Source: Candidatus Berkelbacteria bacterium RIFCSPLOWO2_01_FULL_50_28
GTDB lineage: Bacteria > Patescibacteriota > UBA1384 > 2-12-FULL-50-11
DNA: 64,000 nt
Assembly (NCBI GenBank): GCA_001774395.1
Contig: MEZX01000002.1
Coordinates: forward strand, 160,753 to 224,752
Reading direction: 5' to 3'
The notes under the pieces are model-generated. The model was not told the DNA's origin. It did not search any database and saw nothing but the letters and a program-made list of their open reading frames with translations. Positions 25,866-47,021 of the stretch are shown piece by piece (position 1 is the stretch's first letter; each line of letters begins with the position of its first letter). The position numbers and the translations under genes are program-made.

Positions 25866-28800
25866 CGACAAAAGGTAGCTCCGGCTCGGTGCTACTGCTC
25901 ACAGTGATGGTCCTGGCGGTTTTGACCACGACGACTTTCGGGGCGATCGCCGTGCGTTTTGATCAGCTTGCCGCAACGGATAAATTAACCAACTCAGCGG
26001 TTGCTAAACTGGCCGCTGACTCGGGTCTAGCCCAGCTGCGTGATAAGTTGATCAACAATCAGCCGGTCAGCCAGGCCTACTCTTACAACATCGAAACAGC
26101 CCAAGAGAATCAGATAGCCACAACCGCCGGCTATCGACCGAACCCCAGATCGTCGTACGCCACCTACGAACCAGCCAAAACTTCGCTGCCGCGCTGTATC
26201 GCCGCCGCCGTGCTGGATCCTTGGGTAAACAGCGGCAAGTATCTGTCGAAAGACGTTGCCAGCCCAACGCTAATTTTCTACTACGCCAACATCGTTAACG
26301 ACACGCCGTTGGGTATACTGCCAGCCAACGCGAACCTTTCAGTGAACGACAAGAAGATTCCGATCTCCGACGTCACCAGTATGGGTCACTTTTACAATCC
26401 GTTCGCGCCGTTGAACGCTACCCAAGATTCGCCCAGCTACTGGACGATCAAACTCGGTGGGCCGGACGACCAGTTCTTGACCCAGAAGGCCTCAAACAAC
26501 GTCGACTCGCTTTTCCGCGGCCTTGACGTCCTCTATAGCTATTATCTGCCCAGGCTGACTGACTCGGGTATCGCCGCGGGCGGCTCCCAGACGGGGTTAG
26601 ATCGAATTGATAGTGCTGATCTTACCGGTTTATTTGAAGACACGATTCGCAATAATAACTTCAAAGTTTGGCTTGACGCCTCAATTTCCGATACTTATCT
26701 CTACCAGTACGGATTAGGCGATCTGTTTGTTGCGAATTCGCAGTACCGCATAAAGTGGATGCAGCCCTCGCTCTGGAACGACTTGCCAGAAGCGGATGTG
26801 GCTGTGCCTTATAAATCAGACGATCTGGGCGCCTCGACGGTCTCGTGGACAAAGAAAGGCTTGCCGCTCCTGACGCCAGGAGCAGACATCGGCGGTTGGG
26901 GGGTATCTATCTTACGCGGCGCTTCTTCGTTTTCGTTTGTGCGCTTGAGCAGTGCCAGTAACGGCGTTGCTTTTAGCCCCGGTCAGACCATCGACGGGTT
27001 TGTTTACGGCGGCCTTGACGGTCTGCGGCTCAATTCACGCCTCAGCCTGCAGCTATTTACCAAAGTTGGCGGTCACGTCTCTTTGAAAAGTCGCGCTCAG
27101 GACCAAGGGAAACTTTACGGGGCTACCGTTACTCAGATTGGATCGGTCACTGCGCAAAATATCGCCATTAAGTTAAAACTAAGCAGCAACGACTACGAGA
27201 CGCCGACGCTCTCCTATTCCAGTGCTTACCCGACCGGCTCAATGATCGGCACAATCGCCTTGCTTGCCGCGCCGCAGTTCTCGACTAACAAGTCTCTCTC
27301 CTCGGCGACAGTCAAGGCCGATGGGGACGGCATAAATGCCAACATTACGGTGCAGAGTAACGGTAACTGCGTTGCTGTCGCGGGCAGCTTTACCGCCTGT
27401 CCGGCGGTGGGGGATCTTATCGGCCTGTCAAAATCTGGCCAAGATCCGCTTTGGGGGATGGTTGAGACGGTTAGTTTTACTGGTACAAACCTCGGTAGTT
27501 TTACGATAGACAAATTGCGACGGGGGCCAAAACCTACCCGCCATCAAGCAGTGACGTACTATACAGCCAACTCTAACCCGCGTATCGCCTACTTCGGCGG
27601 CGCGATCGATATGAACGATTACGACGGCGGTTACGCTTCAGAGAGTGCGGAACTGTGGATTTACGACCCAGAAGGCGACAGTTGGAGCTATCCGAATAAC
27701 CCTGGTGGCACGCCACCGGGACCGCGCGCCGGCGCTTCGATGGTCTACGATAACGTCAACGGTCGCTTGGTGGTTGTTGGTGGCTACTATCACGAGGCAG
27801 TGACTCCCGATGCCAACCCGGCCTTTGACTGTGAGATTAGCCAGCAGTCGTGCTTGTACACTAACCGGCCTCATTTTCGTATCGCCAAACGAATAGTTAA
27901 CGACGTCTATGCCTACAATATCGCCGGTAATTCCTGGGAGAAGATGAACTACACCTTTACCGGCGCGGCCCAAAAGATTGAGAACGGTGTCACCTACACC
28001 GCTCGAGTGGTCTCAACGCTGGCCAATCGAAGCGGGTTAGAAGGCTGGCGCCAGACGACGCTGATGGAGAACGCCTCGCCGCAGACTATCAACATTAACG
28101 GCGCGGCGACTAATATTGTTGTTAAGCCGTCCGCGGCCGGGCTGGCAATCGGGGACGAGCTGTATCTTTCCGGAAAGCTCACCGTTAGCGCCGCCTCATT
28201 CACTGCCTGGGGGAGGATAACCGGCATCAATTACGCCGCCAACAGTATCACCGTTACCGTGCGCGGCTATAAAAAAGCTGCTCCCACCGATCCAAACACA
28301 GTGACACTGAGTGATCTTTCGATGCAGGTCTTAAGTCGTCTCGGAAACGGCAACGGTCAAACTTGTACAGGAGTTGTTACTACCTCTTACTCTTGCAATT
28401 TCAGTAATATCACTGGTTTTGCCGTTGGCGACCAAGTGGTTCTGGAGAGATATGTTGGATCAGAAAATTTAACAGATGTTTTAAGCGGTTTTATCAGCTA
28501 CACCTCGGGTACGTCAGCCTATTTTGTGGCCGACGAACGCGACAGCGCCATCTTAGATTTCGCCGATCAGTCTCTGGGTCGCCCTAGCGGCGGCACGGCC
28601 GTCGCCTTCCCTGTTGGGCGTTACGGGGCAACGCTTGGGCAGGATCCAACTGCTGGCGACACAGATAAAGCGCTGTTGTATCAAGGGGCGTCGAAGAATT
28701 TTGCTGCTAATTTGCGTTTTAACGATGTCTGGCAGGCCAAATTCAACGCTGGCACTGGCACCGGCAGTATTGCCTGGACGCTGTTCAATTTGCAGAATCC

Positions 28801-30964
28801 CCAAGGGCCGAATACCGATTCTGGATACTATATTCAGAATATCCGTTCGTCGTACTTTGCTAATGTCTTCACAAGCTCCGTTGCGGCCGAGAACCCGGGG
28901 ATGGTCAAAGACTTGGATTACACCGATCCGCGGACTGAACAGCACTATGTAGCGTGGGATGAGACTAAAAACTGGACTTTGAAACTCGACACGACGGGGC
29001 AGGAGAGTCTATCCAGCGGCCAACTTGTGCCAGGCGCCCAGATTATTATTGAGCGCCAGAGCTTGGTTGCTGACGGAGCTCAGCCGCGCGGTCGTGAAGT
29101 TTTCCACGGTTACATCGTCAGTAACTTTGGCGGCTCTTATGACAGCACCAAGATAGTGGTGCGCCACAACCCGTCTTACGCCGACGACAAAGGTCTGCTC
29201 GGAGATTCAGCCGCTTCTAAAATCTCTATCTATTCCTATCTGCCAACGACCGCCCCGATCCGTAAACAGAGCGATTCGAACTGGCTAACCGCCGCGTGGG
29301 ACGGGACAACGAAGAGTTTCACTGTTAGCTCAAGCGACATCAACCTTAACGAAATCCCACCAGTTGGAGCTCTGATTCAATCCTGGAAAAACCCCAACAG
29401 CAGTGCCACGATCGATGCGACGCTCTTTGTGGTGAAGGGCCGTACTTACAGCTACAACCTCGGGGCGCATCAGTTCCGATTCGATGTGGATACCATCAAG
29501 CTCTCCACGCCTCTCCCAATTGCCTTCGGTAGCAACCAGGTGGTCGGAGATGCTAATAGTGCCCGGGTTATGTCGCTTGGTGATCAAAATATGCCTTGGG
29601 ACAGCTGGGCTGCACCGGACTGGGCGACAGACGCTTCTGCCAATAATCGCTGGGTTATCCGTCGTTCTGCCACGGGAAACCCGGGTTACGCGCCAGGTCC
29701 GCGCCAAGCAGCCGCTCTAGGGTCGTATTTCGATGGCACAAATTCGCAACTCTATATGGCTGGGGCTAGCTTCGGTCCGACGTCGACAGTTTGGAAAAAA
29801 TCCAACGCTGGCAAGACTACTTATACTAGCGACACTGCCTGGTCGTTTCTCAAGACATCGCCGAACAACGACAACGGTTTACCCAGTTTGTGGGGCTCCT
29901 CGATGATTGTTTACCGGTTCAATAGCCAAACAAAAGCGGTTTATTTCAACGGTAAGTTGAAGTACGACAACGGCCGTAACGATTACGGTCGCACCGTTGG
30001 GGCTCGTATCTTGGGGCGGCCGGACTTGAATCGCTGGGGAACCGAATCCAACGGCGGTTACCAGAACAGTGACAATACTTTTTATCTGGACGACACTAGC
30101 TCAACGCTTGATTCGGCCGGGTTTGTTAGTAGTATTTACAACAACTTCCCCACAACCGCTCCAACATCGGTCAAAGATAGTTTTCGCCTCAAGGGATACG
30201 GAATTACGCCAACATCGCAAGGCGGTTGGAGCACCGGCAAAGCGGTCTGCCCGTACTTGGGTCAGAAATGCGACGGCGGTAACGATTACAGCCCGCTTTT
30301 GGGCAGCCTGGGAACGCTCGGCCGCAGCTCCAGTAACAGCAGCGCCTACGGCGGCTACGGTTGGGGCTCGAGTCGAGCGGTTCTGAACCCTGGTTCGGCA
30401 TTCTTGAGCCAAGGTGGCAACGCGAGCGCGATTCTCTCCGGGCCAACATTCTCTGGCAACATCACCAACGGTCGTTGGGAGCAGGACGGTTACGCACCGT
30501 ATCTCTGTGACTCGCAAGTCGGCTGCGGCAATTACTATCAATCGAACTACGGCTCGCTGGCAACTAATTTCCAGAGCGATAAGACGATAATGTTTGCTGG
30601 TTACACTAAACTGATCGGCGGCGGTAAGGGCGGAGCGATTCTGGTCACGCCAGCCGGCGTCGGCACAGGGTTTCTAACCAAATCCGGCATACTTGGTGGC
30701 GCGAGTGATCGTTGGTACTCGTACTGCGCCGCCAGCGACACTACTGTTGATGGCAGCGATAACTACACCTGTAACACCAAAGCAACGCGCTATTTGCCCT
30801 GGTTGCCGGACATCGAAGATATGCTTTTCCTGATGAACGCCGCGGTAAAGTTGGCCTCGGCCGACAGCTACAAAGTCACCGGTTACTACGGCAACGCCCG
30901 TCGGGCCTATATTGTCACTTCCGTTACCGGCGAAGATGCGAAGGTTCAGGAAATAACGCCGTAA
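25862..30964 (+). CDS. Giant pilus-associated protein (1700 aa) with a PilX-like N-terminal TM segment; Gly/Thr/Asn-rich, beta-rich. A putative tip adhesin by analogy to PilY1
   Basis: MTTKGSSGSVLLLTVMVLAVLTTTTFGAIAV; 4-nt overlap with the preceding pseudopilin; no catalytic motifs seen. Confidence 0.8.
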   Translation: MTTKGSSGSVLLLTVMVLAVLTTTTFGAIAVRFDQLAATDKLTNSAVAKLAADSGLAQLRDKLINNQPVSQAYSYNIETAQENQIATTAGYRPNPRSSYATYEPAKTSLPRCIAAAVLDPWVNSGKYLSKDVASPTLIFYYANIVNDTPLGILPANANLSVNDKKIPISDVTSMGHFYNPFAPLNATQDSPSYWTIKLGGPDDQFLTQKASNNVDSLFRGLDVLYSYYLPRLTDSGIAAGGSQTGLDRIDSADLTGLFEDTIRNNNFKVWLDASISDTYLYQYGLGDLFVANSQYRIKWMQPSLWNDLPEADVAVPYKSDDLGASTVSWTKKGLPLLTPGADIGGWGVSILRGASSFSFVRLSSASNGVAFSPGQTIDGFVYGGLDGLRLNSRLSLQLFTKVGGHVSLKSRAQDQGKLYGATVTQIGSVTAQNIAIKLKLSSNDYETPTLSYSSAYPTGSMIGTIALLAAPQFSTNKSLSSATVKADGDGINANITVQSNGNCVAVAGSFTACPAVGDLIGLSKSGQDPLWGMVETVSFTGTNLGSFTIDKLRRGPKPTRHQAVTYYTANSNPRIAYFGGAIDMNDYDGGYASESAELWIYDPEGDSWSYPNNPGGTPPGPRAGASMVYDNVNGRLVVVGGYYHEAVTPDANPAFDCEISQQSCLYTNRPHFRIAKRIVNDVYAYNIAGNSWEKMNYTFTGAAQKIENGVTYTARVVSTLANRSGLEGWRQTTLMENASPQTININGAATNIVVKPSAAGLAIGDELYLSGKLTVSAASFTAWGRITGINYAANSITVTVRGYKKAAPTDPNTVTLSDLSMQVLSRLGNGNGQTCTGVVTTSYSCNFSNITGFAVGDQVVLERYVGSENLTDVLSGFISYTSGTSAYFVADERDSAILDFADQSLGRPSGGTAVAFPVGRYGATLGQDPTAGDTDKALLYQGASKNFAANLRFNDVWQAKFNAGTGTGSIAWTLFNLQNPQGPNTDSGYYIQNIRSSYFANVFTSSVAAENPGMVKDLDYTDPRTEQHYVAWDETKNWTLKLDTTGQESLSSGQLVPGAQIIIERQSLVADGAQPRGREVFHGYIVSNFGGSYDSTKIVVRHNPSYADDKGLLGDSAASKISIYSYLPTTAPIRKQSDSNWLTAAWDGTTKSFTVSSSDINLNEIPPVGALIQSWKNPNSSATIDATLFVVKGRTYSYNLGAHQFRFDVDTIKLSTPLPIAFGSNQVVGDANSARVMSLGDQNMPWDSWAAPDWATDASANNRWVIRRSATGNPGYAPGPRQAAALGSYFDGTNSQLYMAGASFGPTSTVWKKSNAGKTTYTSDTAWSFLKTSPNNDNGLPSLWGSSMIVYRFNSQTKAVYFNGKLKYDNGRNDYGRTVGARILGRPDLNRWGTESNGGYQNSDNTFYLDDTSSTLDSAGFVSSIYNNFPTTAPTSVKDSFRLKGYGITPTSQGGWSTGKAVCPYLGQKCDGGNDYSPLLGSLGTLGRSSSNSSAYGGYGWGSSRAVLNPGSAFLSQGGNASAILSGPTFSGNITNGRWEQDGYAPYLCDSQVGCGNYYQSNYGSLATNFQSDKTIMFAGYTKLIGGGKGGAILVTPAGVGTGFLTKSGILGGASDRWYSYCAASDTTVDGSDNYTCNTKATRYLPWLPDIEDMLFLMNAAVKLASADSYKVTGYYGNARRAYIVTSVTGEDAKVQEITP

Positions 30965-31190: not shown

Positions 31191-32075
31191 TTATTTGTAT
31201 TCGTGCTGGGCGATTTCGTAGTGAAGTTTTATGCGGTCGTCCCAACTGCGGCCGCGTAGGTCAACAGAGTGCGGTACTTCTTTTATTTCGCCCTTGCTGT
31301 CACGGCGAATAATGCCAACATTGTAGTAAACCATCGGTGTTTCCTCGGCAGTTTTCTTGACGTAATCGGGATGTTTCTCGCCGTAGACGCCGCGCAAGAA
31401 ATCTTCTGTGCTCATGGCCGGGAAAACGTTCGTGTACACGACCGATGGATTGCCGTCGATATACTTGCCGATGTAGCGCGCAAATGCAGGGTCCTTATCG
31501 TCGCCTAGGCACATTTGGTTGAAGAAGATAACTCCACCATCAGCCAGGTGGTGGTTGGCGATCTGGAGCTGATTTTTGAACTCATCCTGACCATCACTGC
31601 CGCCGCGAGCGTGTTGGGGAATTTTGTCGCGAATCGCTTCCGGATAAAGATGATACGGCGGGTAAAGGCCGATGACCTTGGCTGATTTGGGTGGAAAGCT
31701 ATCTTCGCTATAGAGCTCATGCTTCACCTCGAATCGAACGTCATTGAGCTTGGCATTTTCTTGGGCTTGCTCAATTGCTCGGGCACTTTTATCAAGCGCT
31801 ATAACCTTGCTGCCAGGGAAATGTTTGCTAACGAGAATTGAAAACACGCCGCTACCGCAGCCGATATCCAAGAAGTCGATCGAGCCGTTAGAGTCTTGCA
31901 GCGCTTTGGCAATATAAGGCTTAGAAAACTCCCAAGTGAACGGCTGCTCCTCGTAAAACACCGCCATCACGTTATCGCTCTGGTCGGTGCGTTTGCGGTT
32001 AATTGGATCAACTTTTAGTTTAATGCCGGCAAACTCGACATTTTCATCGAACATATTGGGGTTACTAATTGCCAT
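31191..32075 (-). CDS. SAM-dependent methyltransferase (294 aa) with motif I LDIGCGSGVF and a PPY motif
   Basis: FLDIGCGSGVFSILV and GLYPPYH. The [NDS]PP[YF] motif is typical of amino-group (N6-A/N5-Gln-type) methyltransferases. Confidence 0.7.
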   Translation of the reverse strand: MAISNPNMFDENVEFAGIKLKVDPINRKRTDQSDNVMAVFYEEQPFTWEFSKPYIAKALQDSNGSIDFLDIGCGSGVFSILVSKHFPGSKVIALDKSARAIEQAQENAKLNDVRFEVKHELYSEDSFPPKSAKVIGLYPPYHLYPEAIRDKIPQHARGGSDGQDEFKNQLQIANHHLADGGVIFFNQMCLGDDKDPAFARYIGKYIDGNPSVVYTNVFPAMSTEDFLRGVYGEKHPDYVKKTAEETPMVYYNVGIIRRDSKGEIKEVPHSVDLRGRSWDDRIKLHYEIAQHEYK

Positions 32076-32892
32076 TTTCTCCTTTTGTTACGTTATATTT
32101 CTCTGCTGCATCCCACGCTAAACGCCAAATCGCCATCAACATATCCGCAACGTCTTTACTTTCAATGACTGCGGCTAGTAGATTCTTCTTGTATATAGAA
32201 ATGTAGACCTTACCCGCTTTGGGATGCACGGTGATCGATCCAGTAAAAGGAAATCTGTCACGAGGGATATATCGGCTTATCCGTAAGGGATTATTCTCAT
32301 TTTCTTGGACTCTACCGTCGCGATGGGTGTAAATAACGTTAGACTTCGTACCACGTTCTTCCCGCGGTTTTTCATGAACTTCGCCGTAGTTGGGGAAGGC
32401 ATCTTTTAACTCGTCTAAAGCAGTAAACGAAAAAATCTCCATATCCGGATCGGTGCTTGCGCTTGTGCGCATAGTCTTCTGTCCCTCGAGACCTTCGTAG
32501 ATACGGATAACCGGACGATTCTTGGACATTCGAAACAATGCCGCTAGCTGAGGAATAACGGTACCAATCCTCTCTTCGTCTTGTGCCAGTCGCTGCTTTT
32601 GTGTTTCTAAGAGTTTCTTTAGGTTCTCGGGCGATTCGGCACTGTATAGTGTCTTTTTGCCCAATTCTCGATGAGAAGCTAGCCCCTTCTTGCTAAGCTC
32701 GCCCAAGATAAAGTATGCCGTGGGGCGGTTAATGCCGGACTTTGTTGCGATGTTTTGGACAGAGCTTTCGCCAAGCTCTAATGCAGCGAGGTAGACCCTA
32801 GACTCCTTCTCGCTCAATCCGGCACTTGTCAGCATCTCTTCCATTCCTATTTGTATATTAACTTTTTTGCCATCGGTTTTCTTATAACGCAT
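32065..32892 (-). CDS. TrmB-family transcriptional regulator (about 275 aa)
   Basis: LSEKESRVYLAALELGESSVQNIATKSGINRPTAYFILGELSKKGL. Start chosen at M18 (32892) because TTGACA-17-TATAGT ends about 6 nt upstream, making the mRNA leaderless. Alternative starts are 32844 and 32943. Confidence 0.75.
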   Translation of the reverse strand: MRYKKTDGKKVNIQIGMEEMLTSAGLSEKESRVYLAALELGESSVQNIATKSGINRPTAYFILGELSKKGLASHRELGKKTLYSAESPENLKKLLETQKQRLAQDEERIGTVIPQLAALFRMSKNRPVIRIYEGLEGQKTMRTSASTDPDMEIFSFTALDELKDAFPNYGEVHEKPREERGTKSNVIYTHRDGRVQENENNPLRISRYIPRDRFPFTGSITVHPKAGKVYISIYKKNLLAAVIESKDVADMLMAIWRLAWDAAEKYNVTKGENGN

Positions 32893-33233
32893 CTTAACGT
32901 AACTATAATCTAACCTTTGAAATATGTCAAGGGCTATTGACAACTATTGTACAATATGCTATTATCCCCTTTGAAGCTTAACAATAGGTTGTCAATAGAA
33001 ACTGACTTTTCGCCGATAGGGACCACGGCAGAGGCGCTCCTACCCGCAAGGGATGTGAGCGATGCTCGTTTGAGCGGTACGCCGCCCTAAAGACTTTTAG
33101 TTGGTACTTGTCGATCCTTGTGAGCCCACATTCCTTGAATAGCGATTATTAATCACTAGAAAGGGATATTCAGCACCTAACCGTGCTGACATGTAAGGGA
33201 AATAACCTTTACATATCAGTGCGGTTAACGGCT

Positions 33234-33369
33234 GGGGGCGAACGGGTTCGACAGAGACCCAAGTGCGTGGTTAGGGCGTGGTAGCCCAACTCGGAAAAAC
33301 GGCTCAAGAAAGACCGAGCATCACGTAGCAAGTCTTTGGAACTGGGTTCGATTCCCAGCGCCTCCACCA
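33234..33369 (+). ncRNA. ssrA: Miniature tmRNA (ssrA)-like RNA: canonical tmRNA 5' and 3' tRNA-like halves only about 136 nt apart; no identifiable tag reading frame or pseudoknots
   Basis: 5' GGGGGCGAACGGGUUCGACAGAGACCCAAGUGCG resembles B. subtilis GGGGACGUUACGGAUUCGACAGGGAU. 3' GGAACUGGGUUCGAUUCCCAGCGCCUCCACCA resembles GGACGUGGGUUCGACUCCCACCGUCUCCACCA. A G3-U70 pair is present and CCA is encoded. Confidence 0.5.
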
Positions 33370-33548
33370 GATTCGTTTCAACCGGTCGCCGACAAATAAA
33401 GGCGGCCAGCGGCTACCCCCTCCGGGTTTAGGGGTAGCAGTGGGCGGTTATGTAACCCACTGCCTAGGATCACCGCCAAGGTGATCTGACGACTTAGGGA
33501 ACCAAAACTTGGCGAAAGAGAGTCCGTATACTCTCAGGTTCCCGCCTC

Positions 33549-33610
33549 GGATCCGGCTCGAGGCCCGTGCTCGAGCCTGAAATTGAGGGAATTGTCCCTT
33601 GCACTTTACA
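33549..33610 (+). promoter_or_regulatory. Cassette-upstream element A (hairpin GGCTCGAGG-cccgtg-CTCGAGCC + CTGAAATTGAGGGAATTGTCCCTTGCACTTTACA)
   Basis: Member of a 5-copy family (A-E) confined to 33.5-35.6 kb. Confidence 0.6.
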
Positions 33611-33734
33611 AATAGAAAGTTGATAGAGCTTCGGCAAAACTATCCGTTAGTCAGACGACGTTAAGTCCGGCCCTCAGTCGAACGAGTAGCAATACTTGGA
33701 CGAGGATGTATTTCAAGGGAACAGTGAAAGTAAT

Positions 33735-34319
33735 ATGAAAAACCTGACAACTGCCTTGGCCTTCGCCGTTGCCTCGATCGTTTCTGCTCAGACCTCGTTG
33801 GTTTGGGTGGACAGCGCCAAGGGGGGTTCGCCCTCCGTAACAGCTGCCTTCTTCGCGAAGGACGGTTGGGAGGTCTGGGCGTTCGGGGCGAATAACCCCA
33901 AAACGCTCGACCTGGAACTGGGGCGCCTCTTTCCTTGGGGAAAGAAGGTGCTGGTTGGCGGGTACGTTGCCGTTTGGCCGGATTCAAACAGGACCTTCGG
34001 GATACCGTTTGTGATGGTCAACGACAAGGTGCTTGGAGGCCACTTGTGCCTCAAGCTAGGCTGTTACCTGCCGTTAAACGGTGGGCCAACTATCCTTTTC
34101 TCCGATGAGAGTTCGCTCTTGTGGGAGGCCAAAAAAGGGTTAAGTTGGGGGCCGATTCTCTCCTACGTTCAGGTCGACGGTGGTAAGCCAATCGCAAGAT
34201 TGGGACTGTCACTGCGCCTGACGAAGGGGGATGAAACCCTGGAGCTTAGCTGCCAACCGGTTTACTTATCTGGGGACGGGGAAACCCGCTTCCGGATCGG
34301 TATTACCCACCGGTTCTAG
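33735..34319 (+). CDS. Secreted beta-rich protein (about 194 aa), signal peptide, C-terminal ...GITHRF (OMP-like, resembles the 14421 product)
   Basis: MKNLTTALAFAVASIVSAQTS; internal start of track ORF 33696. Confidence 0.55.
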   Translation: MKNLTTALAFAVASIVSAQTSLVWVDSAKGGSPSVTAAFFAKDGWEVWAFGANNPKTLDLELGRLFPWGKKVLVGGYVAVWPDSNRTFGIPFVMVNDKVLGGHLCLKLGCYLPLNGGPTILFSDESSLLWEAKKGLSWGPILSYVQVDGGKPIARLGLSLRLTKGDETLELSCQPVYLSGDGETRFRIGITHRF

Positions 34320-34461
34320 CTCGCTGACCGAGTACGGTTGGGCGCTGAATCGCGCCTTGGAGCTGCATAAAGGAGCGGCAGATCGGGCAGAAACAAGACG
34401 CAAAGAAGTGTGATGGAGGTTCCCTATTGTTAGCCTCCTGCGTCGCCCAGTAATGTTTCAG

Positions 34462-34524
34462 TTTTCATCCACGGCCGGATTCATCCGGCCTGAAATTGAG
34501 AGCTGAAAGGTTCTCGCACATTTT
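34462..34524 (+). promoter_or_regulatory. Cassette-upstream element B (hairpin GGCCGGAT-tc-ATCCGGCC + CTGAAATTGAGAGCTGAAAGGTTCTCGCACATTTT)
   Basis: About 85% identical to element E. Confidence 0.6.
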
Positions 34525-34557
34525 ACAGGGTAGCGACCAACGCCAGGAGAAAAATAC

Positions 34558-34782
34558 ATGACAAGCATCCTCGCCATCCTCGTCGCGATCATTCTGGCAG
34601 TTGGGAACACAGTGCTGATGGGCTCGGCCCTGATAGCGCTCCAGCATGGCCGGTTTGGTCTTCTGCTCGTTGCGCTGATGGTGCTGTTCGTCTCCGGCGA
34701 ACTGATCATCAAGCCCCTGTTTCGACTTGTGGGCGAACAGGGAGTGCGAAAGCACTTGGCTAAGCGCAACAAGGGAGAGTAG
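34558..34782 (+). CDS. Small 2-TM membrane protein (74 aa)
   Basis: MTSILAILVAIILAVGNTVLMGSALIALQHGRFGLLLVALMVLFVSG...; SD CCAGGAGA. Confidence 0.55.
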   Translation: MTSILAILVAIILAVGNTVLMGSALIALQHGRFGLLLVALMVLFVSGELIIKPLFRLVGEQGVRKHLAKRNKGE

Positions 34783-34822
34783 CCCTCGTATTACTCACGT
34801 TTCAGCAATTGAAACGCCCTTT

Positions 34823-34886
34823 GATCCGGCTCGAGGCCTGTGCTCGAGCCTGAAACTAAGGGCTGAAAAGCTCTAATTTGCACATT
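34823..34886 (+). promoter_or_regulatory. Cassette-upstream element C (hairpin GGCTCGAGG-cctgtg-CTCGAGCC + CTGAAACTAAGGGCTGAAAAGCTCTAATTTGCACATT)
   Basis: About 80% identical to element A. Confidence 0.6.
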
Positions 34887-34898
34887 CCAGGAGGCAAG

Positions 34899-35114
34899 AT
34901 GCGTGTAATACTTAAGGTTTACCATGACTGCGGCAGTGATATCAGTACAGTCGAGTTTGATCTCGACGATCTGGTCAGAACACTCAACGCTGGCGGGACC
35001 TTCGAGGTCAAGGCAATGTGCGACGATTTGCACAGTAGGAGACTGGGCCTCCGATATAGCTTGGGACACGAGAATCATACGGGCAAATTTGTTGTTGTGC
35101 CCAGGAAAAGCTGA
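34899..35114 (+). CDS. Small hypothetical protein (71 aa; MRVILKVYHDCGSDISTVEFDLDDLVRTLNAGG...)
   Basis: AGGAGG lies 4 nt upstream of the ATG at 34899. The track ORF starts at 34878 without an SD. Confidence 0.5.
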   Translation: MRVILKVYHDCGSDISTVEFDLDDLVRTLNAGGTFEVKAMCDDLHSRRLGLRYSLGHENHTGKFVVVPRKS

Positions 35115-35127
35115 ACCACAACCTTCA

Positions 35128-35180
35128 TATCCGGCTTGAGCCGTCTCGAGCCCGAAATTGAGAGCTGAAAAAGCTAAGGA
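35128..35180 (+). promoter_or_regulatory. Cassette-upstream element D (hairpin GGCTTGAGCC-gt-CTCGAGCC + CGAAATTGAGAGCTGAAAAAGC, running straight into the SD)
   Basis: Truncated variant lacking the TTGCACAT block. Confidence 0.55.
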
Positions 35181-35190
35181 GAACATTAAA

Positions 35191-35478
35191 ATGGCGACAA
35201 TCATTGCCAACGAACAGTTGACCAAGACTCTAGAACCGCTTCTTGAAGATGTCGATGCGATCTATGTGGATACCCACTCATCGACGGGTCAGATTGACGA
35301 GGAACGAATAAGCCAGGCTGCAGAGCTGGCTCGCAGGGGAAAACGAGTTGTCCTTTTCGGATGGTTCGCCGAGGCCGAGGTGGGTAGTAAAATCGCCCCG
35401 TGTATGACCTACCAGAACGCGGTCTATGCCCGTTTACCGCTTTCGATCGACCAGATGCGGGAACTGGGCAAAGGATGA
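35191..35478 (+). CDS. Small hypothetical protein (95 aa; MATIIANEQLTKTLEPLLEDVDAIYVDTHSSTGQ...)
   Basis: AAGGAGA lies 8 nt upstream of the ATG. Confidence 0.5.
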   Translation: MATIIANEQLTKTLEPLLEDVDAIYVDTHSSTGQIDEERISQAAELARRGKRVVLFGWFAEAEVGSKIAPCMTYQNAVYARLPLSIDQMRELGKG

Positions 35479-35489
35479 TGTCGTCTCAA

Positions 35490-35550
35490 CTTTCATCCAC
35501 GGCCGGATCTTTCCGGCCTGAAAATGAGAGCTGAAAAGTTCTTGCACATC
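35490..35550 (+). promoter_or_regulatory. Cassette-upstream element E (hairpin GGCCGGA-tctt-TCCGGCC + CTGAAAATGAGAGCTGAAAAGTTCTTGCACATCC)
   Basis: Family member upstream of the REC-zinc-finger gene. Confidence 0.6.
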
Positions 35551-35568
35551 CAACTACAGGTGAAATAA

Positions 35569-36291
35569 ATGCGTATTTTAGTGGTAGAAGATTCCGAACT
35601 GCACCGCCGCTCCGCTATCAAGACACTCGAGGGCCACGAGCTTACGATCGCCGCCAACTACAAGCAGGCTGTCAATTGCTTGGGAGGCGCCACGGCCAAC
35701 GAGTACGAGCGTCAAGAGAAAGGAGATCCGTACGACGTGCTACTGACCGATATGATGATCGGGAGCGGCGAGACCAATGACGAGGGGACGCACGCCTTCG
35801 GGTTCGTCCTGGCTCTGATAGCCGCCCTGCGTGGGGTTAAGCACATTGCACTGCTCACCGACATTAACCATCACCACGCTGGTCCTAGCCAAGCGCTCGA
35901 CGCGATCGGCCCGGCCTACTACCGCTGCCCGGGAGAATTCGCGCCAAACTTCGAGATCAACGGCGCTAAGGCGATGTTCGTCCACGCCCCGGTGAGGACG
36001 TTTGAGACGCTCAAGAATCAGCCGTGCGAGAATTGTGTTGATCTGGTGGCCGTGAGGTATAGCACCTGCGATTACCCGCCGAGCTGGAAGCCGGGGGAGT
36101 GCCGATACTGTAAAGGCACCGCTTTCTTAGAGGACGACGAAGAGCGCGAGGTTTGCCCCGCTTGCAAAGCTGATCCCGGCAAATGCAGCGATTGCAAAGG
36201 AACCGGCGTGGCCGACCGCAACCTGGTTGGCAAAGATTGGGGAATGGTCCTGAAGGACCTGCTCGGAACGCTACCAACCGACGAGGTGTAG
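35569..36291 (+). CDS. Response-regulator receiver (REC)-like domain fused to a DnaJ-type cysteine-rich (CxxCxGxG) zinc-finger region, 240 aa
   Basis: N-terminus MRILVVEDSE...YDVLLTDMMIG (acidic pocket and putative phospho-Asp). C-terminus CRYCKGTA...CPACKADPGKCSDCKGTGV. Confidence 0.6.
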   Translation: MRILVVEDSELHRRSAIKTLEGHELTIAANYKQAVNCLGGATANEYERQEKGDPYDVLLTDMMIGSGETNDEGTHAFGFVLALIAALRGVKHIALLTDINHHHAGPSQALDAIGPAYYRCPGEFAPNFEINGAKAMFVHAPVRTFETLKNQPCENCVDLVAVRYSTCDYPPSWKPGECRYCKGTAFLEDDEEREVCPACKADPGKCSDCKGTGVADRNLVGKDWGMVLKDLLGTLPTDEV

Positions 36292-36310
36292 CCAATCACC
36301 TCCGCAAACC

Positions 36311-36345
36311 CGCCCTGAAATATGGGCGGGATATTTTTATGCCCT
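36311..36345 (+). terminator. Intrinsic terminator (CCCGCCC-tgaaatat-GGGCGGG + aTATTTTT) closing the cassette array
   Basis: A perfect 7-bp stem plus a T tract 20 nt after the stop. Confidence 0.65.
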
Positions 36346-36501
36346 AACCTGTCTTATCATATATATGCGATAAAGTAGGTTAGGAGCCGTATGCTATATA
36401 TGACATACGGGTGACAGTGAATACTGGAAATGATTGGTGGCTCGGCGTGAGTTATACGCGCAAGTCTCCCTATTCGGTCGAAAGTTGCTTATTCGCTTCG
36501 C

Positions 36502-38370: not shown

Positions 38371-39309
38371 TCAACTCTTAAGTGCGGGGTCAAGTGCGTC
38401 GCCTCTTTTTGTGTCGTGAAAACGATGATGGGCTTCGCGCAGGCTACGGTCGGTCACGTGGGTGTAAATTTGCGTCGTCGCGACCGACGAGTGGCCAAGC
38501 AGAGCCTGAACCGAGCGAAGGTCGGCGCCGTTTTGCAGCAAGTCGGTGGCAAAGCCGTGACGAAGTTTGTGCGGGGTGACTGGTTTACTCAAGCCGGCTT
38601 TGAGCGCCAGAGTGTGGAGAATGCGCTGGACGGAACGGGCGGTGAGCGATGTTTTGTTGCTGTCGAGACGGCTATTGGTGTAGTGTCTGATGAAAACAAA
38701 GGGGTTGCTATCGCTGCGTGACTCCAAGTAATCGGCCAAAATCTCGAGCGCCTCGTCGGATAAGAATACCGGTCGAACTTTGCCGCCTTTGCCCTTAACT
38801 GAAAATTCGCCTTTCACTAGGCTGACCTCGTTTCTTTTTAGCGCCACCAGCTCGCTGACCCGTAGGCCCGTCGAAAAGAGGGTTTTAACAATGGCCCGGT
38901 CCCGTTTATCGGTTAATCGTTCGCCCGCAATCGCCGCGTTGAGCCGTTCCATATCATCAGCGCTAATAAACTGAATCTGTCGCTGGCCGGTTTTGCTCAA
39001 CGGTATTTTAGCGATCGAAATTACATTGGCTTCCGACATCGAGAGAAACCGTAGCAGCGAGCGCAGGGCAATTAAGTAATAATTTCGGCTGCTCGGCCCA
39101 AGCGGCGGCGTGTGCTTGGTGGCAAGATGCTCTTGAAACTCTAAAATGTCGTCGCCGCCGATTTTCTCAACATCGATTAGTTTGGCTTCAAGTGCCCAGG
39201 CAGAAAAAGAATTTAGGTAGTGCTCGTAATTGCGCAAAGTGTACGGGGAGTAGTTGCGTCCCACTCGGCAGTAGCGCAGGTATTCCTTAACGGCGCGCGT
39301 GATGGTCAT
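38371..39309 (-). CDS. xerC: Tyrosine site-specific recombinase XerC/XerD family
   Basis: C-terminal ...HKLRHGFATDLLQNGADLRSVQALLGHSSVATTQIYTHV (R..HxxR...Y catalytic signature). Confidence 0.9.
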   Translation of the reverse strand: MTITRAVKEYLRYCRVGRNYSPYTLRNYEHYLNSFSAWALEAKLIDVEKIGGDDILEFQEHLATKHTPPLGPSSRNYYLIALRSLLRFLSMSEANVISIAKIPLSKTGQRQIQFISADDMERLNAAIAGERLTDKRDRAIVKTLFSTGLRVSELVALKRNEVSLVKGEFSVKGKGGKVRPVFLSDEALEILADYLESRSDSNPFVFIRHYTNSRLDSNKTSLTARSVQRILHTLALKAGLSKPVTPHKLRHGFATDLLQNGADLRSVQALLGHSSVATTQIYTHVTDRSLREAHHRFHDTKRGDALDPALKS

Positions 39310-46505: not shown

Positions 46506-47021
46506 ATGGAAGAAGAATACTCGTTTAAAGGACAGCGTTCGGATGAGCAAGTGGTGCTGGTTACCAAGCAACATCTGTGGCTCTTGTCGCCGTTAGTTCT
46601 TGTTTGGGCGGTGATAATTGGGTTGATTCTGCTCTTGGTTTGGTGGCAAGGGGCGTCGCGAGTGAGTTCGTATATAACTTTTGGCATCGCCGTGGTTGGG
46701 CTAATTTACAGCTATTACTTTTGGTTTATCTGGAACAACTCCGATTATATTGTGACCAACCAGCGGGTGATCAAAATGGATCAAATTAGCTTCTTCAACC
46801 GGGTTATTTCTGAAGCCGAAATTGACCGAATCCAAGAGATTTCAACCGAGGTGGCGGGGCCGATTCACACCTTACTCAAATTCGGCACGGTCCGTATTAA
46901 AACAGCATCGGACTCCGGCAAAATGGACCTGGACGACTTGACCGACCCGTACTCGGTTCAGCAAGTTATTGTGAGTATCCAGAAAAAAACCCACCCCAAC
47001 CGGCCCCCGCGGATTATTTAG
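46506..47021 (+). CDS. Membrane protein with a bacterial PH (bPH_2/DUF304, YdbS/YdbT-like) domain
   Basis: Two TM helices, then YIVTNQRVIKMDQ... Confidence 0.6.
   Translation: MEEEYSFKGQRSDEQVVLVTKQHLWLLSPLVLVWAVIIGLILLLVWWQGASRVSSYITFGIAVVGLIYSYYFWFIWNNSDYIVTNQRVIKMDQISFFNRVISEAEIDRIQEISTEVAGPIHTLLKFGTVRIKTASDSGKMDLDDLTDPYSVQQVIVSIQKKTHPNRPPRII

What the first reader, a model, noticed from the sequence alone, without database searches (positions are those of the whole stretch)
35569..36291. Novel domain fusion: receiver (REC)-like domain with a DnaJ-type CxxCxGxG zinc finger
The N-terminal roughly 120 aa has the response-regulator layout (acidic EDSE pocket; LLTDMMIG with a putative phospho-Asp) but with insertions. 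The C-terminal roughly 90 aa has DnaJ-CR-like repeats (CRYCKGTA; CPACKADPGKCSDCKGTGV) instead of a DNA-binding output. It is the terminal gene of the five-cassette array. It could couple phosphorylation to zinc-finger-mediated protein interaction or chaperone-like holdase activity
Basis: partly seen in the sequence, partly recalled or inferred. Interest (0 to 1): 0.55.

Follow-up and report, generated by a model that had tools for sequence, protein, structure and literature searches.

The report
Atypical receiver protein with inserted zinc module
This gene encodes an unusual signal-receiver protein with a zinc-binding module spliced into one of its loops. It belongs to a large, unnamed protein family found almost only in the tiny "candidate phyla radiation" (CPR) bacteria, where it usually sits next to a TrmB-type gene regulator and may be part of a signalling switch specific to these bacteria.

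Summary
Two AlphaFold models (pLDDT 85 and 95) match solved receiver (REC) domains almost exclusively. Profile comparison aligns D8 and D61 with CheY D13 and D57.

It is not an N-terminal REC fused to a C-terminal output domain. It is one REC fold, and the Cys-rich DnaJ-like module (four CxxC motifs, residues 153-209) is inserted in the beta5-alpha5 loop. The invariant C-terminal "GKDWG" helix is alpha5.

The zinc module is optional. Of 139 family representatives, 55 have no CxxC, 34 have two and 26 have four.

The protein belongs to a large unnamed family (1,245 clusters at E<=1e-3) found almost only in CPR/Patescibacteria. The family keeps the acidic pocket (D/E7, D8, D61, T/S97). It lacks the canonical beta5 lysine (His/Asn instead) and has its own T-D-x-N-H-H loop and an invariant Lys222.

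About 25 of 41 informative loci have a TrmBL2-like wHTH regulator gene directly upstream and divergent. No histidine kinase was seen nearby. In this window, four small cassettes lie between the two genes.

Best reading: an atypical stand-alone receiver that works with the TrmB-like regulator. It is a new variant of a known kind. The biochemical function was not tested.

The parts
35569..36291 (+). Complete gene, 240 aa: atypical REC-fold protein with an inserted zinc module
   Evidence: ORF. Identical to a deposited Berkelbacteria hypothetical protein. AF2 pLDDT 85, pTM 0.80.
35558..35563 (+). Shine-Dalgarno-like AGGTGA, 5 nt before the ATG
   Evidence: Read directly from the sequence.
35569..35991 (+). 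REC core, beta1 to beta5 (residues 1-141). Contains the acidic pair E7-D8 (35587-35592), acceptor-position D61 (35749-35751), T97 (35857-35859), the family loop N100-H101-H102 (35866-35874), and H139 where REC domains have Lys (35983-35985)
   Evidence: AF2 secondary structure. Foldseek REC hits. hhalign D8=CheY D13 and D61=CheY D57. Conservation in 168 family representatives. Coordinates.
35992..36231 (+). Insertion in the beta5-alpha5 loop (residues 142-221): two stalk strands (142-152 and 214-222) carrying the Cys-rich module
   Evidence: AF2 strands E142-152 and E214-222. Minimal family members go from 'FxHAP' to 'KDWG' in 4-9 residues.
36025..36195 (+). DnaJ-CR-like zinc module: four CxxC motifs (C153/156, C178/181, C196/199, C206/209), expected to bind two Zn
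   Evidence: Cys positions. Profile hits to the DnaJ CR 1exk (E=0.0036) and 2ctt (E=0.0047). PF00684 hit in 8 of 23 members. pLDDT is 86-94 except for residues 161-170, where it is 48.
36232..36267 (+). Invariant K222-D-W224-G225 motif and alpha5 helix of the REC fold
   Evidence: K222 in 163/168 and W224 in 165/168 representatives. Helix 224-231 in the model. Present in family members that have no zinc module.
35494..35552 (+). Fifth copy of the two-hairpin intergenic element, in the 5' leader of the gene
   Evidence: The covariance model scores it at 71 bits.
36309..36340 (+). Terminator-like hairpin CCCGCCC..GGGCGGG plus T-run; end of the transcription unit
32937..32965 (+). Sigma-70-like promoter TTGACA-17-TATTAT (11 of 12 matches), back to back with a divergent one at 32930-32902. 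Probable promoter of the whole + strand unit that ends with this gene
   Evidence: The promoter is conserved in the relative L003. In most other loci the REC-like gene follows such a promoter directly.
32065..32835 (-). TrmBL2-like winged-helix regulator, the conserved divergent partner gene of the family
   Evidence: PF01978 at E=3.6e-14. The partner profile matches TrmBL2 over its full length, E=2.5e-13. Adjacency statistics.
33548..35478 (+). Four small cassettes lying between the partner genes, each preceded by the element: 33735-34319 (194 aa, signal peptide), 34558-34782 (74 aa, membrane), 34899-35114 (71 aa), 35191-35478 (95 aa)
   Evidence: Gene calls. Elements. No Pfam hits.

Best explanation
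The gene encodes a stand-alone, atypical receiver (REC-fold) protein of a large family restricted to CPR bacteria.

Shown:
- It is one (beta-alpha)5 REC fold.
- The acidic pocket is kept (E7-D8, D61, T97).
- The canonical beta5 lysine is replaced by His139.
- A family-specific T-D-x-N-H-H loop follows beta4.
- An invariant Lys222-Asp-Trp-Gly motif starts alpha5.
- A DnaJ-CR-like module with four CxxC motifs sits on a two-strand stalk inserted in the beta5-alpha5 loop.
- The module is optional within the family.
- In most loci the gene is the divergent neighbour of a TrmBL2-like winged-helix regulator, and no other neighbour is conserved.

Inferred:
- The two genes form a self-contained regulatory switch, in effect a response regulator split into two polypeptides.
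- A signal is read at the Asp/His pocket. It could be phosphorylation from a small donor such as acetyl phosphate or from a distant kinase, or it could be binding of a divalent metal.
- The signal changes the alpha4-beta5-alpha5 face. This is the usual output surface of receivers and is where the zinc module protrudes.
- That face binds the TrmBL2-like protein and alters its repression of the divergent promoters.
- In this genome those promoters also drive four small secreted or membrane-protein cassettes placed in the gene's leader.
- The zinc module is an accessory protein-contact surface that tunes partner binding. It is not a chaperone domain.
For: Fold:
- AF2 models have pLDDT 85.3/pTM 0.80 and pLDDT 94.8/pTM 0.90 for the 185-aa homologue P0014.
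- Foldseek against the PDB is dominated by REC domains for the window model (most of the top 30), and 49 of 50 top hits for P0014 are receiver or receiver-like folds. Probability is 1.0 and target-normalised TM is 0.5-0.68. Viral REC proteins top the BFVD search.

Sequence:
- hhalign against CheY/Spo0F/PhoB gives 94.8% and 96.4% probability, with E down to 1e-9.
- PF00072 is hit by 18 of 23 members.

Pocket conservation in 168 representatives:
- D/E7 in 166, D8 in 163, D61 in 166, T/S97 in 168.
- H101 in 163, H102 in 165, K222 in 163.
- Position 139 is His in 91 and Asn in 45, never Lys among the common residues.

Insertion topology. Optional zinc module. DnaJ-CR likeness.

Partner gene:
- A TrmB-like gene lies directly upstream and divergent in about 22-25 of 41 informative loci. 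The binomial p is about 1e-20 at a 4% background.
- The partner profile matches TrmBL2 over its full length.
- A TrmB family of about 252 aa is CPR-enriched, present in 1,011 CPR genomes against 13 other bacterial genomes (PMC6744442, Supplementary Data 1).
- The other neighbours are unrelated housekeeping genes.

No histidine kinase:
- None appears in any neighbourhood examined.
- A crude motif screen of the 64-kb window finds none.
- CPR bacteria have the lowest histidine-kinase frequencies (PMC10805038).
Against: - No interaction, phosphorylation or metal-binding data exist. The link to TrmB rests on gene order only, and a divergent regulator may simply control this gene as its target.
- About a third of informative loci lack a TrmB neighbour (for example L001, L009, L015, L016, L048, L050).
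- No fusion of the two families was found among 120 listed homologues.
- The beta5 lysine that real receivers need is missing.
- The second half of the domain aligns to REC only by predicted structure, not by sequence.
The distance of K222, H101 and H102 from D61, and the Cys pairing, were therefore not checked.
Confidence: 0.45

Rival explanations
1. One reading: a classical orphan response regulator. D61 is phosphorylated by a histidine kinase encoded elsewhere, and the DnaJ-type zinc finger is the output, giving phosphorylation-controlled protein binding or holdase activity.
For: The REC fold and an intact D-D-D-T pocket. The zinc module resembles the DnaJ CR and anti-TRAP. The module sits on the surface that phosphorylation normally changes (the role of that surface is established knowledge of REC domains).
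Against: The beta5 Lys is absent in the whole family. About 40% of family representatives have no CxxC at all, so the zinc module cannot be the family's output. No kinase was found in any neighbourhood, and CPR bacteria are kinase-poor. There is no J-domain and no DnaJ C-terminal domains. There is no consistent link to chaperone genes; trigger factor, Clp, Lon or DnaJ appear near only 4 loci.
Confidence: 0.2
2. A REC-scaffold metal site or enzyme. The conserved acids and histidines (D/E7, D8, D61, N/D100-H101-H102, D111) bind a transition metal. The protein would then be a small hydrolase/phosphatase or a metal sensor whose expression is controlled by the neighbouring TrmB-like repressor.
For: H101, H102 and D111 are as conserved as the acceptor Asp. 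Some members read D-H-H instead of N-H-H. The order acidic pair, then D, then (N/D)HH, then D recalls the DxD...D...DHH...D motifs of DHH phosphoesterases (my own knowledge, resemblance only). The beta3-alpha3 loop next to the pocket is about 10 residues longer than in CheY. A divergent regulator next to its target gene is the commonest bacterial arrangement (general knowledge).
Against: No sequence or fold match to DHH, HAD or other hydrolases. Pfam lists none among 23 members, and Foldseek lists REC domains, not DHH proteins. No substrate-related genes are conserved nearby.
Confidence: 0.15
3. A phosphorylation-independent pseudo-receiver. The REC fold serves only as a constitutive dimerisation or docking module for the TrmB-like protein or another partner, and the pocket residues are kept for structural reasons.
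For: The canonical Lys is lost, the window protein fails the Pfam threshold, and kinases are absent. Atypical receivers that work without phosphorylation are well known (my own knowledge).
Against: Pseudo-receivers usually lose the acidic pocket. Here D8, D61 and T/S97 are kept in 97-100% of 168 divergent representatives, together with extra invariant polar residues around them. This argues for a ligand or chemistry at that site.
Confidence: 0.15
4. A mobile-element or phage regulator related to Q-type antiterminators, acting on the repeated hairpin elements of the cassette array.
For: Weak matches of the last zinc knuckle plus the KxWG helix to phage Q proteins: phrog_127 at E=0.0016 for the window protein and 1.7e-5 for P0010, and PDB 7ubj at E=0.036. 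Two paralogues lie in a phage-like region of L001. The array follows a tmRNA-like gene, and tmRNA genes are a classic integration site.
Against: No relatives in IMG/VR or in 50,697 phage records. The KDWG helix is part of the REC core in members without zinc, so the Q match is probably a generic zinc-knuckle similarity. The hairpin element is absent from all other loci that carry the family.
Confidence: 0.05

Closest known systems
Single-domain CheY-like response regulators (REC, Pfam PF00072)
   Same: Predicted (beta-alpha)5 fold. Acidic pair after beta1, Asp at the end of beta3 followed by 'xxMP', Thr at the end of beta4, and Pro after beta5. A stand-alone protein with no DNA-binding domain.
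   Different: No Lys at the end of beta5 (His/Asn instead). An invariant N-H-H loop after the Thr. An invariant Lys-Asp-Trp-Gly motif at the start of alpha5. A long beta3-alpha3 loop. Variable insertions between alpha2 and beta3 and in the beta5-alpha5 loop. The window protein scores 12 bits against the Pfam cut-off of 30. No kinase partner is known.
Cysteine-rich domain of DnaJ/Hsp40 (PF00684; PDB 1exk) and anti-TRAP
   Same: Four CxxC motifs in about 57 residues, the last a perfect CxxCxGxG. This is the best PDB profile match. Like the DnaJ CR, it is an insertion into a host domain. Family members with only two motifs keep the outer pair, which fits the nested two-zinc topology of DnaJ (the DnaJ topology is from my own knowledge).
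   Different: The host is a REC fold, not DnaJ C-terminal domain I. There is no J-domain. Only one or two of the four motifs have the GxG tail. The window protein is below the Pfam threshold (11.9 against 32.7 bits). The module is absent from about 40% of the family.
Atypical or phosphorylation-independent receivers (e.g. HP1043, ChxR, FrzS-type pseudo-receivers; from my own knowledge)
   Same: A REC fold that departs from the canonical five catalytic residues and has no cognate kinase.
   Different: Those proteins typically lose the acidic pocket or the acceptor Asp. This family keeps them almost invariantly and adds conserved histidines.
TrmB/TrmBL2 winged-helix regulators (the partner gene, not this protein)
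   Same: The neighbouring gene matches PF01978 and aligns with archaeal TrmBL2 over its full length.
   Different: No REC-like partner is described for archaeal TrmB/TrmBL2, as far as my knowledge and four literature searches go.
Phage Q antiterminator zinc ribbon (phrog_127; PDB 7ubj)
   Same: The pattern CxxCxGTG followed by K-x-W-G-x-V.
   Different: Marginal E-values. The rest of Q is absent. The KDWG helix belongs to the REC core here.

Membership tests
REC / response-regulator receiver domain (PF00072) | Flavodoxin-like (beta-alpha)5 fold | tested here: met
   AF2 secondary structure gives five beta-alpha units. Foldseek top hits are REC domains at probability 1.0 and target TM 0.5-0.68.
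REC / response-regulator receiver domain (PF00072) | Acidic pair after beta1 (CheY D12/D13) | tested here: met
   E7-D8. In the family, position 7 is D/E in 166 of 168 and D8 is kept in 163 of 168. hhalign aligns D8 with CheY D13.
REC / response-regulator receiver domain (PF00072) | Phospho-acceptor Asp at the end of beta3 (CheY D57) | tested here: met
   D61 is kept in 166 of 168 and aligns with CheY D57.
REC / response-regulator receiver domain (PF00072) | Thr/Ser at the end of beta4 (CheY T87) | tested here: met
   T97 is the last residue of model strand 92-97. T/S occupies this position in 168 of 168. The equivalence is by position in the model, not by sequence alignment.
REC / response-regulator receiver domain (PF00072) | Lys at the end of beta5 followed by Pro (CheY K109-P110) | tested here: not met
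   The sequence is F137-V-H139-A-P141. Position 139 is H in 91 and N in 45; position 140 is A/T/H/S/N; there is no Lys. Pro141 is kept in 100 of 168. An invariant Lys (K222) lies at the start of alpha5 instead. Whether it reaches the pocket is unknown.
REC / response-regulator receiver domain (PF00072) | Score above the Pfam gathering threshold | tested here: not met
   12.2 bits against a cut-off of 30.2 for the window protein. Only 7 of 120 listed homologues carry a precomputed PF00072 hit.
REC / response-regulator receiver domain (PF00072) | Phosphorylation of the Asp by a histidine kinase or small donor | not testable with these tools
   No kinase in the gene lists of 13 loci, among 20 further neighbours, or by a crude motif screen of the window.
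DnaJ cysteine-rich domain (PF00684) | Four CxxCxGxG repeats | tested here: inconclusive
   Four CxxC motifs are present (153, 178, 196, 206). Only C206 is followed by xGxG, C178 by xGxA, and the other two lack the Gly tail.
DnaJ cysteine-rich domain (PF00684) | Significant profile match | tested here: inconclusive
   The window protein gets E=0.28 and 11.9 bits against a cut-off of 32.7. The family profile against 1exk gives E=0.0036. The best single member gets E=1.1e-6, and 8 of 23 members match.
DnaJ cysteine-rich domain (PF00684) | Two zinc centres with nested pairing (motifs 1+4 and 2+3) | not testable with these tools
   Indirect support only: members with two motifs keep the first and last.
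DnaJ/Hsp40 chaperone | J-domain and C-terminal substrate-binding domains | tested here: not met
   No PF00226 or PF01556 hit. The whole protein is accounted for by the REC fold plus the insertion.
Phage Q antiterminator (phrog_127) | Full-length similarity to Q | tested here: not met
   Only residues 140-219 match 79-176 of 253 profile positions, at E=0.0016. There are no relatives in phage collections.
DHH phosphoesterases (considered because of the N/D-H-H motif) | Sequence or fold similarity to the DHH domain | tested here: not met
   No DHH family appears among the Pfam hits of 23 members at E<=1. No DHH protein appears among the top 50 Foldseek hits of either model.
TrmB/TrmBL2 (partner gene 32065-32835) | N-terminal TrmB wHTH and TrmBL2-like full-length architecture | tested here: met
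   PF01978 at E=3.6e-14 and 52.8 bits against a cut-off of 25.6. The partner profile aligns with 5bpd/5box TrmBL2, positions 7-249 to 7-263, E=2.5e-13.

The most novel reading that the evidence does not exclude
The 'REC-NHH' family together with its TrmBL2-like neighbour could be a CPR-specific signalling system that takes the place of classical two-component systems in these kinase-poor bacteria. In this reading the REC scaffold has been rebuilt into a His/Asp metal or ligand site. It would be either a sensor of a metabolite or metal, or a small enzyme whose chemistry differs from Asp phosphorylation. It would pass the signal to a chromatin-like TrmBL2 regulator in trans. The zinc module would be a plug-in specificity surface gained and lost between lineages.
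Probability: 0.15. Interest if true: 0.75.

Novelty: new variant of a known kind. Interest (0 to 1): 0.55.

Why it matters
CPR/Patescibacteria make up a large share of bacterial diversity. They have very small genomes and the fewest histidine kinases of any group surveyed (PMC10805038), and how they regulate genes is largely unknown.

This analysis defines a large family of receiver-like proteins confined to these organisms: 967 clusters at E<=1e-10. No Pfam or NCBIfam model covers the family. It has a distinctive active-site signature and a strong gene-order link to a TrmB family already reported as CPR-enriched (PMC6744442).

If the pair is a switch, it would be one of the main regulatory modules of CPR bacteria and could be tested in vitro with two small proteins.

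It also gives a clear example of a DnaJ-type zinc module used as a removable insertion on the signalling face of a receiver. I found no description of that arrangement.

Tried and rejected
- **Phage origin:** no relatives in INPHARED phages or IMG/VR. PHROG hits are either generic phage receiver families matching residues 1-60 or a marginal Q-like zinc-knuckle match.
- **Defence system:** no PADLOC hit for the protein or the small cassettes.
- **Fusions that would reveal a partner:** none among 120 listed homologues, all 158-332 aa. The longest, P0152, only adds a coiled coil.
- **Other conserved neighbours:** all-against-all comparison of 23 loci found only the TrmB cluster. Twenty neighbours were unrelated housekeeping genes. 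Chaperone or protease genes appear near a few loci but not consistently.
- **Histidine kinase:** none seen. The motif screen is crude and covers only 64 kb.
- **DHH-like or HAD-like enzyme:** motif resemblance only, with no profile or fold support.
- **Integron-like attC sites for the repeated element:** rejected. The stems are short (8 bp), there are no GTTRRRY-type core sites, and no integron-type integrase is adjacent. The nearest tyrosine recombinase (38371-39309) is Xer-like and is separated from the array by efp, rpsR, ssb and rpsF.
- **The element as a set of promoters:** only copy 4 gives a weak 9/12 match.
- **Covariance model of the element:** it found no copies beyond the five in the window and four in L003.
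- **Literature:** searches on receiver plus CxxCxGxG, TrmB plus CPR/Patescibacteria, and TrmBL2 plus receiver gave nothing relevant.
- **Correction:** I queried columns 197, 200, 205 and 208 as cysteines by mistake. The true positions are 196, 199, 206 and 209. Those four rows should be ignored.
Full report
**Observation**

The ORF 35569..36291 (+) is present: ATG start, TAG stop, 240 aa. An AGGTGA ribosome-binding-like site lies 5 nt upstream.

- EDSE at residues 7-10
- LLTDMMIG at residues 58-65
- CRYCKGTA at residues 178-185
- CPACKADPGKCSDCKGTGV at residues 196-214

The identical protein is deposited as a hypothetical protein of Candidatus Berkelbacteria bacterium RIFCSPLOWO2_01_FULL_50_28.

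On its own the protein is below every curated threshold. Response_reg gives E=0.21 and DnaJ_CXXCXGXG gives E=0.28. There is no meaningful single-sequence PDB match. The domain calls therefore had to be made with family profiles and predicted structure.

**Fold**

A first search found 23 homologues (alignment A1).

AlphaFold2 with that alignment gave a confident model (pLDDT 85.3, pTM 0.80). Its elements are:
- beta1 2-6, alpha1 10-19
- beta2 24-28, alpha2 31-37
- a short extra helix 45-51
- beta3 57-61, alpha3 77-87
- beta4 92-97, alpha4 105-113
- beta5 133-139
- an extra strand 142-152
- the Cys-rich stretch
- a strand 214-222 and a final helix 224-231

Foldseek against the PDB returned receiver domains as most of the top 30 hits, including 3h5i, YycF, PhoB and CheB, at probability 1.0 and target-normalised TM 0.5-0.6.

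A second model, of the shorter homologue P0014 (185 aa), was better still (pLDDT 94.8, pTM 0.90). Its top 50 hits were again receiver or receiver-like folds, with one exception. The viral structure library also returned receiver proteins first.

At sequence level, hhalign of the family against CheY/Spo0F/PhoB gives 94.8% and 96.4% probability (E=5e-8 and 1e-9). The aligned region runs from beta1 to beta3, with D8 on CheY D13 and D61 on CheY D57. PF00072 is hit by 18 of 23 members, best E=1.3e-6.

**Topology: an insertion, not a fusion**

The family's shortest members (150-175 aa, no cysteines) run from the beta5 motif 'INGAKxxFxHAP' through 4-9 residues straight into the invariant 'KDWGxVLxxL' helix. 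That helix is alpha5 of the receiver fold.

In the window protein, 80 residues (142-221) are inserted at that point. They form two antiparallel stalk strands (142-152 and 214-222) that carry the Cys-rich module (153-209) at their tip. P0014 has a single-zinc version of the same insertion.

So the protein is one REC domain with a zinc module in its beta5-alpha5 loop. It is not an N-terminal REC followed by a C-terminal output domain.

A second variable insertion of 0-60 residues lies between alpha2 and beta3. The beta3-alpha3 loop next to the pocket is about 10 residues longer than in CheY.

**The zinc module**

The family profile's two best PDB matches are the DnaJ cysteine-rich domain (1exk, E=0.0036) and that of DNAJA3 (2ctt, E=0.0047).
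- PF00684 is hit by 8 of 23 members, best E=1.1e-6.
- NCBIfam DnaJ and anti-TRAP models are hit by a few members.

The module is optional. Among 139 family representatives with both anchor motifs, the CxxC counts are:

| CxxC motifs | Representatives |
|---|---|
| 0 | 55 |
| 1 | 6 |
| 2 | 34 |
| 3 | 18 |
| 4 | 26 |

Members with two motifs keep the first and last positions. This fits the nested pairing known for DnaJ, where the outer motifs form one zinc site and the inner motifs form the second (my own knowledge of 1EXK). I could not check the pairing in coordinates.

**The family and what is atypical about it**

A profile search of 1.84 billion cluster representatives found 1,245 clusters at E<=1e-3, 967 at E<=1e-10 and 275 at E<=1e-30.

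Of 19 loci recovered from GTDB species genomes, 17 are titled with CPR/Patescibacteria lineages: Parcubacteria, Uhrbacteria, Berkelbacteria, Saccharibacteria, Magasanikbacteria, Zambryskibacteria, Moraniibacteriota, Kaiserbacteria and Portnoybacteria. One is titled Gammaproteobacteria and one only 'uncultured bacterium'.

None was found in IMG/VR or in phage genomes. No Pfam, NCBIfam or PADLOC model covers the family. Sources call members 'hypothetical protein' or, in JGI, 'CheY-like chemotaxis protein'.

Conservation across 168 representatives:

| Position | Conservation (of 168) |
|---|---|
| 7 | D/E in 166 |
| D8 | 163 |
| H23 | 158 |
| D61 | 166 |
| P65 | 162 |
| G78 | 168 |
| 97 | T/S in 168 |
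| N100 | N in 125, D in 16 |
| H101 | 163 |
| H102 | 165 |
| D111 | 154 |
| K222 | 163 |
| W224 | 165 |

Four of the five canonical receiver residues are thus kept almost invariantly. The fifth, the Lys at the end of beta5 (CheY K109), is not. The motif is F-V-H-A-P, with His (91) or Asn (45) and no Lys, although the following Pro is kept.

The T-D-x-N-H-H loop right after the beta4 Thr and the Lys at the start of alpha5 are signatures of this family that classical receivers lack.

**Genomic context**

All-against-all comparison of genes in 23 loci found only one conserved neighbour, a TrmB-family gene of about 255 aa, present in 18 of the 23.
- In most loci it lies immediately upstream on the opposite strand.
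- Adding 21 metagenome loci and several annotated contigs gives about 22-25 of 41 informative loci with this divergent arrangement.
- With a generous 4% background for TrmB genes, the binomial probability is about 1e-20.

The partner carries PF01978. Its profile aligns over the full length with archaeal TrmBL2, E=2.5e-13. A TrmB family of 252 aa is listed as CPR-enriched by Meheust et al. 2019, with 1,011 CPR genomes against 13 other bacteria (PMC6744442, Supplementary Data 1).

Other neighbours are unrelated housekeeping genes: LeuRS, ribonucleotide reductase, RmuC, TatD, PfkB, trigger factor, PNPase, NYN, Fic and the DNA pol III delta subunit.

No histidine kinase appears in any gene list or in a crude motif screen of the whole window. 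CPR bacteria are reported to have the lowest kinase frequencies (PMC10805038).

**The window's special arrangement**

Here and in the 52%-identical relative L003, the TrmB-like gene (32065-32835, minus strand, forming an operon with a methyltransferase) is not adjacent to the REC-like gene.

Back-to-back sigma-70-like promoters sit at 32930(-) and 32937(+), each matching 11 of 12 consensus positions. On the + strand these follow in order:
- a conserved leader of about 270 nt
- a 136-nt tmRNA-like gene
- four small ORFs
- the REC-like gene
- a terminator at 36309-36340

Each of the five ORFs is preceded by a roughly 60-nt element made of two hairpins. Both hairpins are supported by compensatory changes. 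87.9% of cells are paired against 76.9% in shuffles, none of 500 shuffles reaches the covariation score, and sliding the register collapses the pairing.

In other CPR lineages the REC-like gene follows such a promoter directly, through a 60-250-nt leader. The simplest reading is that in Berkelbacteria the cassettes were inserted into the leader of the ancestral divergent pair. The unit is then probably co-transcribed and under the same control. This is inference.

**Mechanism**

Shown:
- the fold
- the retained acidic pocket
- the missing Lys
- the family-specific His loop
- the position and optional nature of the zinc module
- the conserved TrmBL2-like neighbour
- the absence of nearby kinases

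Inferred, my best explanation at confidence 0.45:
- The two genes form a self-contained switch, a response regulator split into two polypeptides.
- A signal is read at the Asp/His pocket. It could be phosphorylation by a small donor such as acetyl phosphate or by a distant kinase, or it could be metal binding.
- The signal alters the alpha4-beta5-alpha5 face. This is the usual output surface of receivers (established knowledge) and the place from which the zinc module projects.
- That face contacts the TrmBL2-like regulator and changes repression at the divergent promoters.

Rivals:
It is weakened by the missing Lys, the optional zinc module and the absence of kinases.
- A REC-scaffold metal site or enzyme controlled by TrmB (0.15). 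It is suggested by the invariant histidines and a motif order recalling DHH phosphoesterases, but it has no profile or fold support.
- A signal-independent pseudo-receiver (0.15). It is hard to square with near-invariant pocket residues.
- A Q-like mobile-element regulator (0.05).

**Comparison with what is known, and novelty**

The protein works like a CheY-type stand-alone receiver and is clearly derived from one. It fails two membership tests, the beta5 Lys and the Pfam threshold, so I file it as an atypical REC-fold family rather than a bona fide phospho-receiver.

The zinc module resembles the DnaJ cysteine-rich domain. The protein is not a DnaJ, since it has no J-domain and no substrate-binding domains.

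I found no description of a receiver with an embedded DnaJ-type zinc module, nor of a TrmB/REC gene pair. The searched library does not include most subscription journals.

Verdict: a new variant of a known kind, with moderate interest (0.55).

**Limits**
- No model coordinates were available, so active-site geometry, strand order and Cys pairing are unverified.
- The link to TrmB is by gene order only.
- The locus counts depend on a crude ORF caller plus tblastn.
- The rest of the genome outside the window was not examined for kinases.

Noticed in passing
window 33548-33609, 34466-34524, 34821-34888, 35126-35186, 35494-35552 (+); also L003 4316-4376, 4671-4733, 5498-5557, 5923-5982: A roughly 60-nt two-hairpin element precedes every ORF of the array. 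It consists of a GC-rich hairpin whose stem sequence varies with compensatory changes, a conserved linker YGAAAYTG, and a second hairpin (GAGRGC-TGAAAA-GYYCTY), often followed by TTGCACAT. It has no Rfam match. A covariance model finds it only in these two Berkelbacteria loci. Homologous cassettes (74/71-aa membrane protein; 194/197-aa signal-peptide protein) are in opposite order in the two genomes, which suggests cassette shuffling at the element. Its function is unknown; it could be an RNA processing or stability site or a protein-binding site.
   Followed up: partly
window 33234-33369 (+): A tmRNA-like gene of only 136 nt. Rfam RF00023 scores 65 bits and matches both ends of the model (acceptor, T-arm, helix 2). 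About 50 nt stand in place of the 282-nt tag-coding and pseudoknot region, and ARAGORN does not call it. It is either a drastically reduced tmRNA or a tRNA-like-domain remnant. It is absent from the same position in the relative L003. It sits between the promoter/leader and the first cassette.
   Followed up: partly
window 32966-33230 (+); L003 3830-4080: A leader of about 270 nt after the strong promoter, conserved between the two Berkelbacteria. Conserved blocks include AGGCGCTCCTACC..GGATGnGAGCGATG and CTAGAAAGG..CAGCAC..GTGCTGAC..ATCAGTGCGG. No Rfam family matches at E<=1. It could be an unknown cis-regulatory RNA or small RNA.
   Followed up: partly
window 33400-33545 (+): A run of four short GC-rich hairpins directly after the tmRNA-like gene: GCTACCCC..GGGGTAGC, AGTGGG..CCCACT, GATCACC..GGTGATC and GAGAGT..ACTCTC. 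A weak tmRNA_permuted hit overlaps its start (33342-33443, 23 bits, E=0.069).
   Followed up: no
window 32902-32965: Back-to-back divergent sigma-70-like promoters, each 11 of 12 to consensus, with adjacent -35 boxes. An inverted repeat CTATTGACAAC..GTTGTCAATAG brackets the + strand promoter and is a candidate operator for the TrmB-like regulator. TTGTCAAT/ATTGACAA motifs recur in the equivalent intergenic regions of many other loci.
   Followed up: partly
window 31191-32075 (-) and 32065-32835 (-): The TrmB-like gene overlaps a downstream class I methyltransferase (PrmA/MTS-like, 294 aa) by 11 nt, so the two form an operon. The same pair is conserved in L003. The methyltransferase gives a generic hit to the PADLOC 'mad2' model (E=2e-15).
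   Followed up: no
window 13135-13899 (-): A second TrmB-like paralogue (254 aa) in the window, with no REC-like neighbour.
   Followed up: no
L001 6001-6789 and 9429-10211 (263-kb JGI contig): Two paralogues of the REC-like family 2.6 kb apart in a phage-like region (SPP1_Dit tail protein, M23 peptidase, DUF3800), without a TrmB neighbour. This may be a prophage or a large CPR phage carrying the family.
   Followed up: no
L035 876-4600; L005 4272-11821; L014: Local amplification. L035 has two tandem TrmB/REC-like pairs. L005 has four TrmB paralogues within 12 kb around one REC-like gene, and L014 has three.
   Followed up: no
window 36343-36407: An AT-rich region between the gene's terminator and efp. 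It has a 21-nt inverted repeat (CCTAACCTGTCTTATCATATA / TATGCGATAAAGTAGGTTAGG) and a direct repeat TATCATATATATGCGATA / TATGCTATATATGACATA 35 nt apart. It may be promoter or operator DNA for the minus-strand efp-rpsR-ssb-rpsF genes.
   Followed up: no
window 36187-36267 (residues 206-233): The last zinc knuckle plus the following helix (CSDCKGTG..GKDWGMVL) resembles the CxxCxGTG..KxWGxV stretch of phage Q antiterminators (PDB 7ubj at E=0.036; phrog_127 at E=0.0016 for this protein and 1.7e-5 for a homologue). It is probably a generic zinc-knuckle similarity.
   Followed up: partly
window 25862-30964 (+) and 47018-51610 (-): Two giant ORFs (1,700 and 1,530 aa). The first has an N-terminal membrane anchor and Kelch/beta-propeller hits, typical of large CPR surface proteins.
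   Followed up: no
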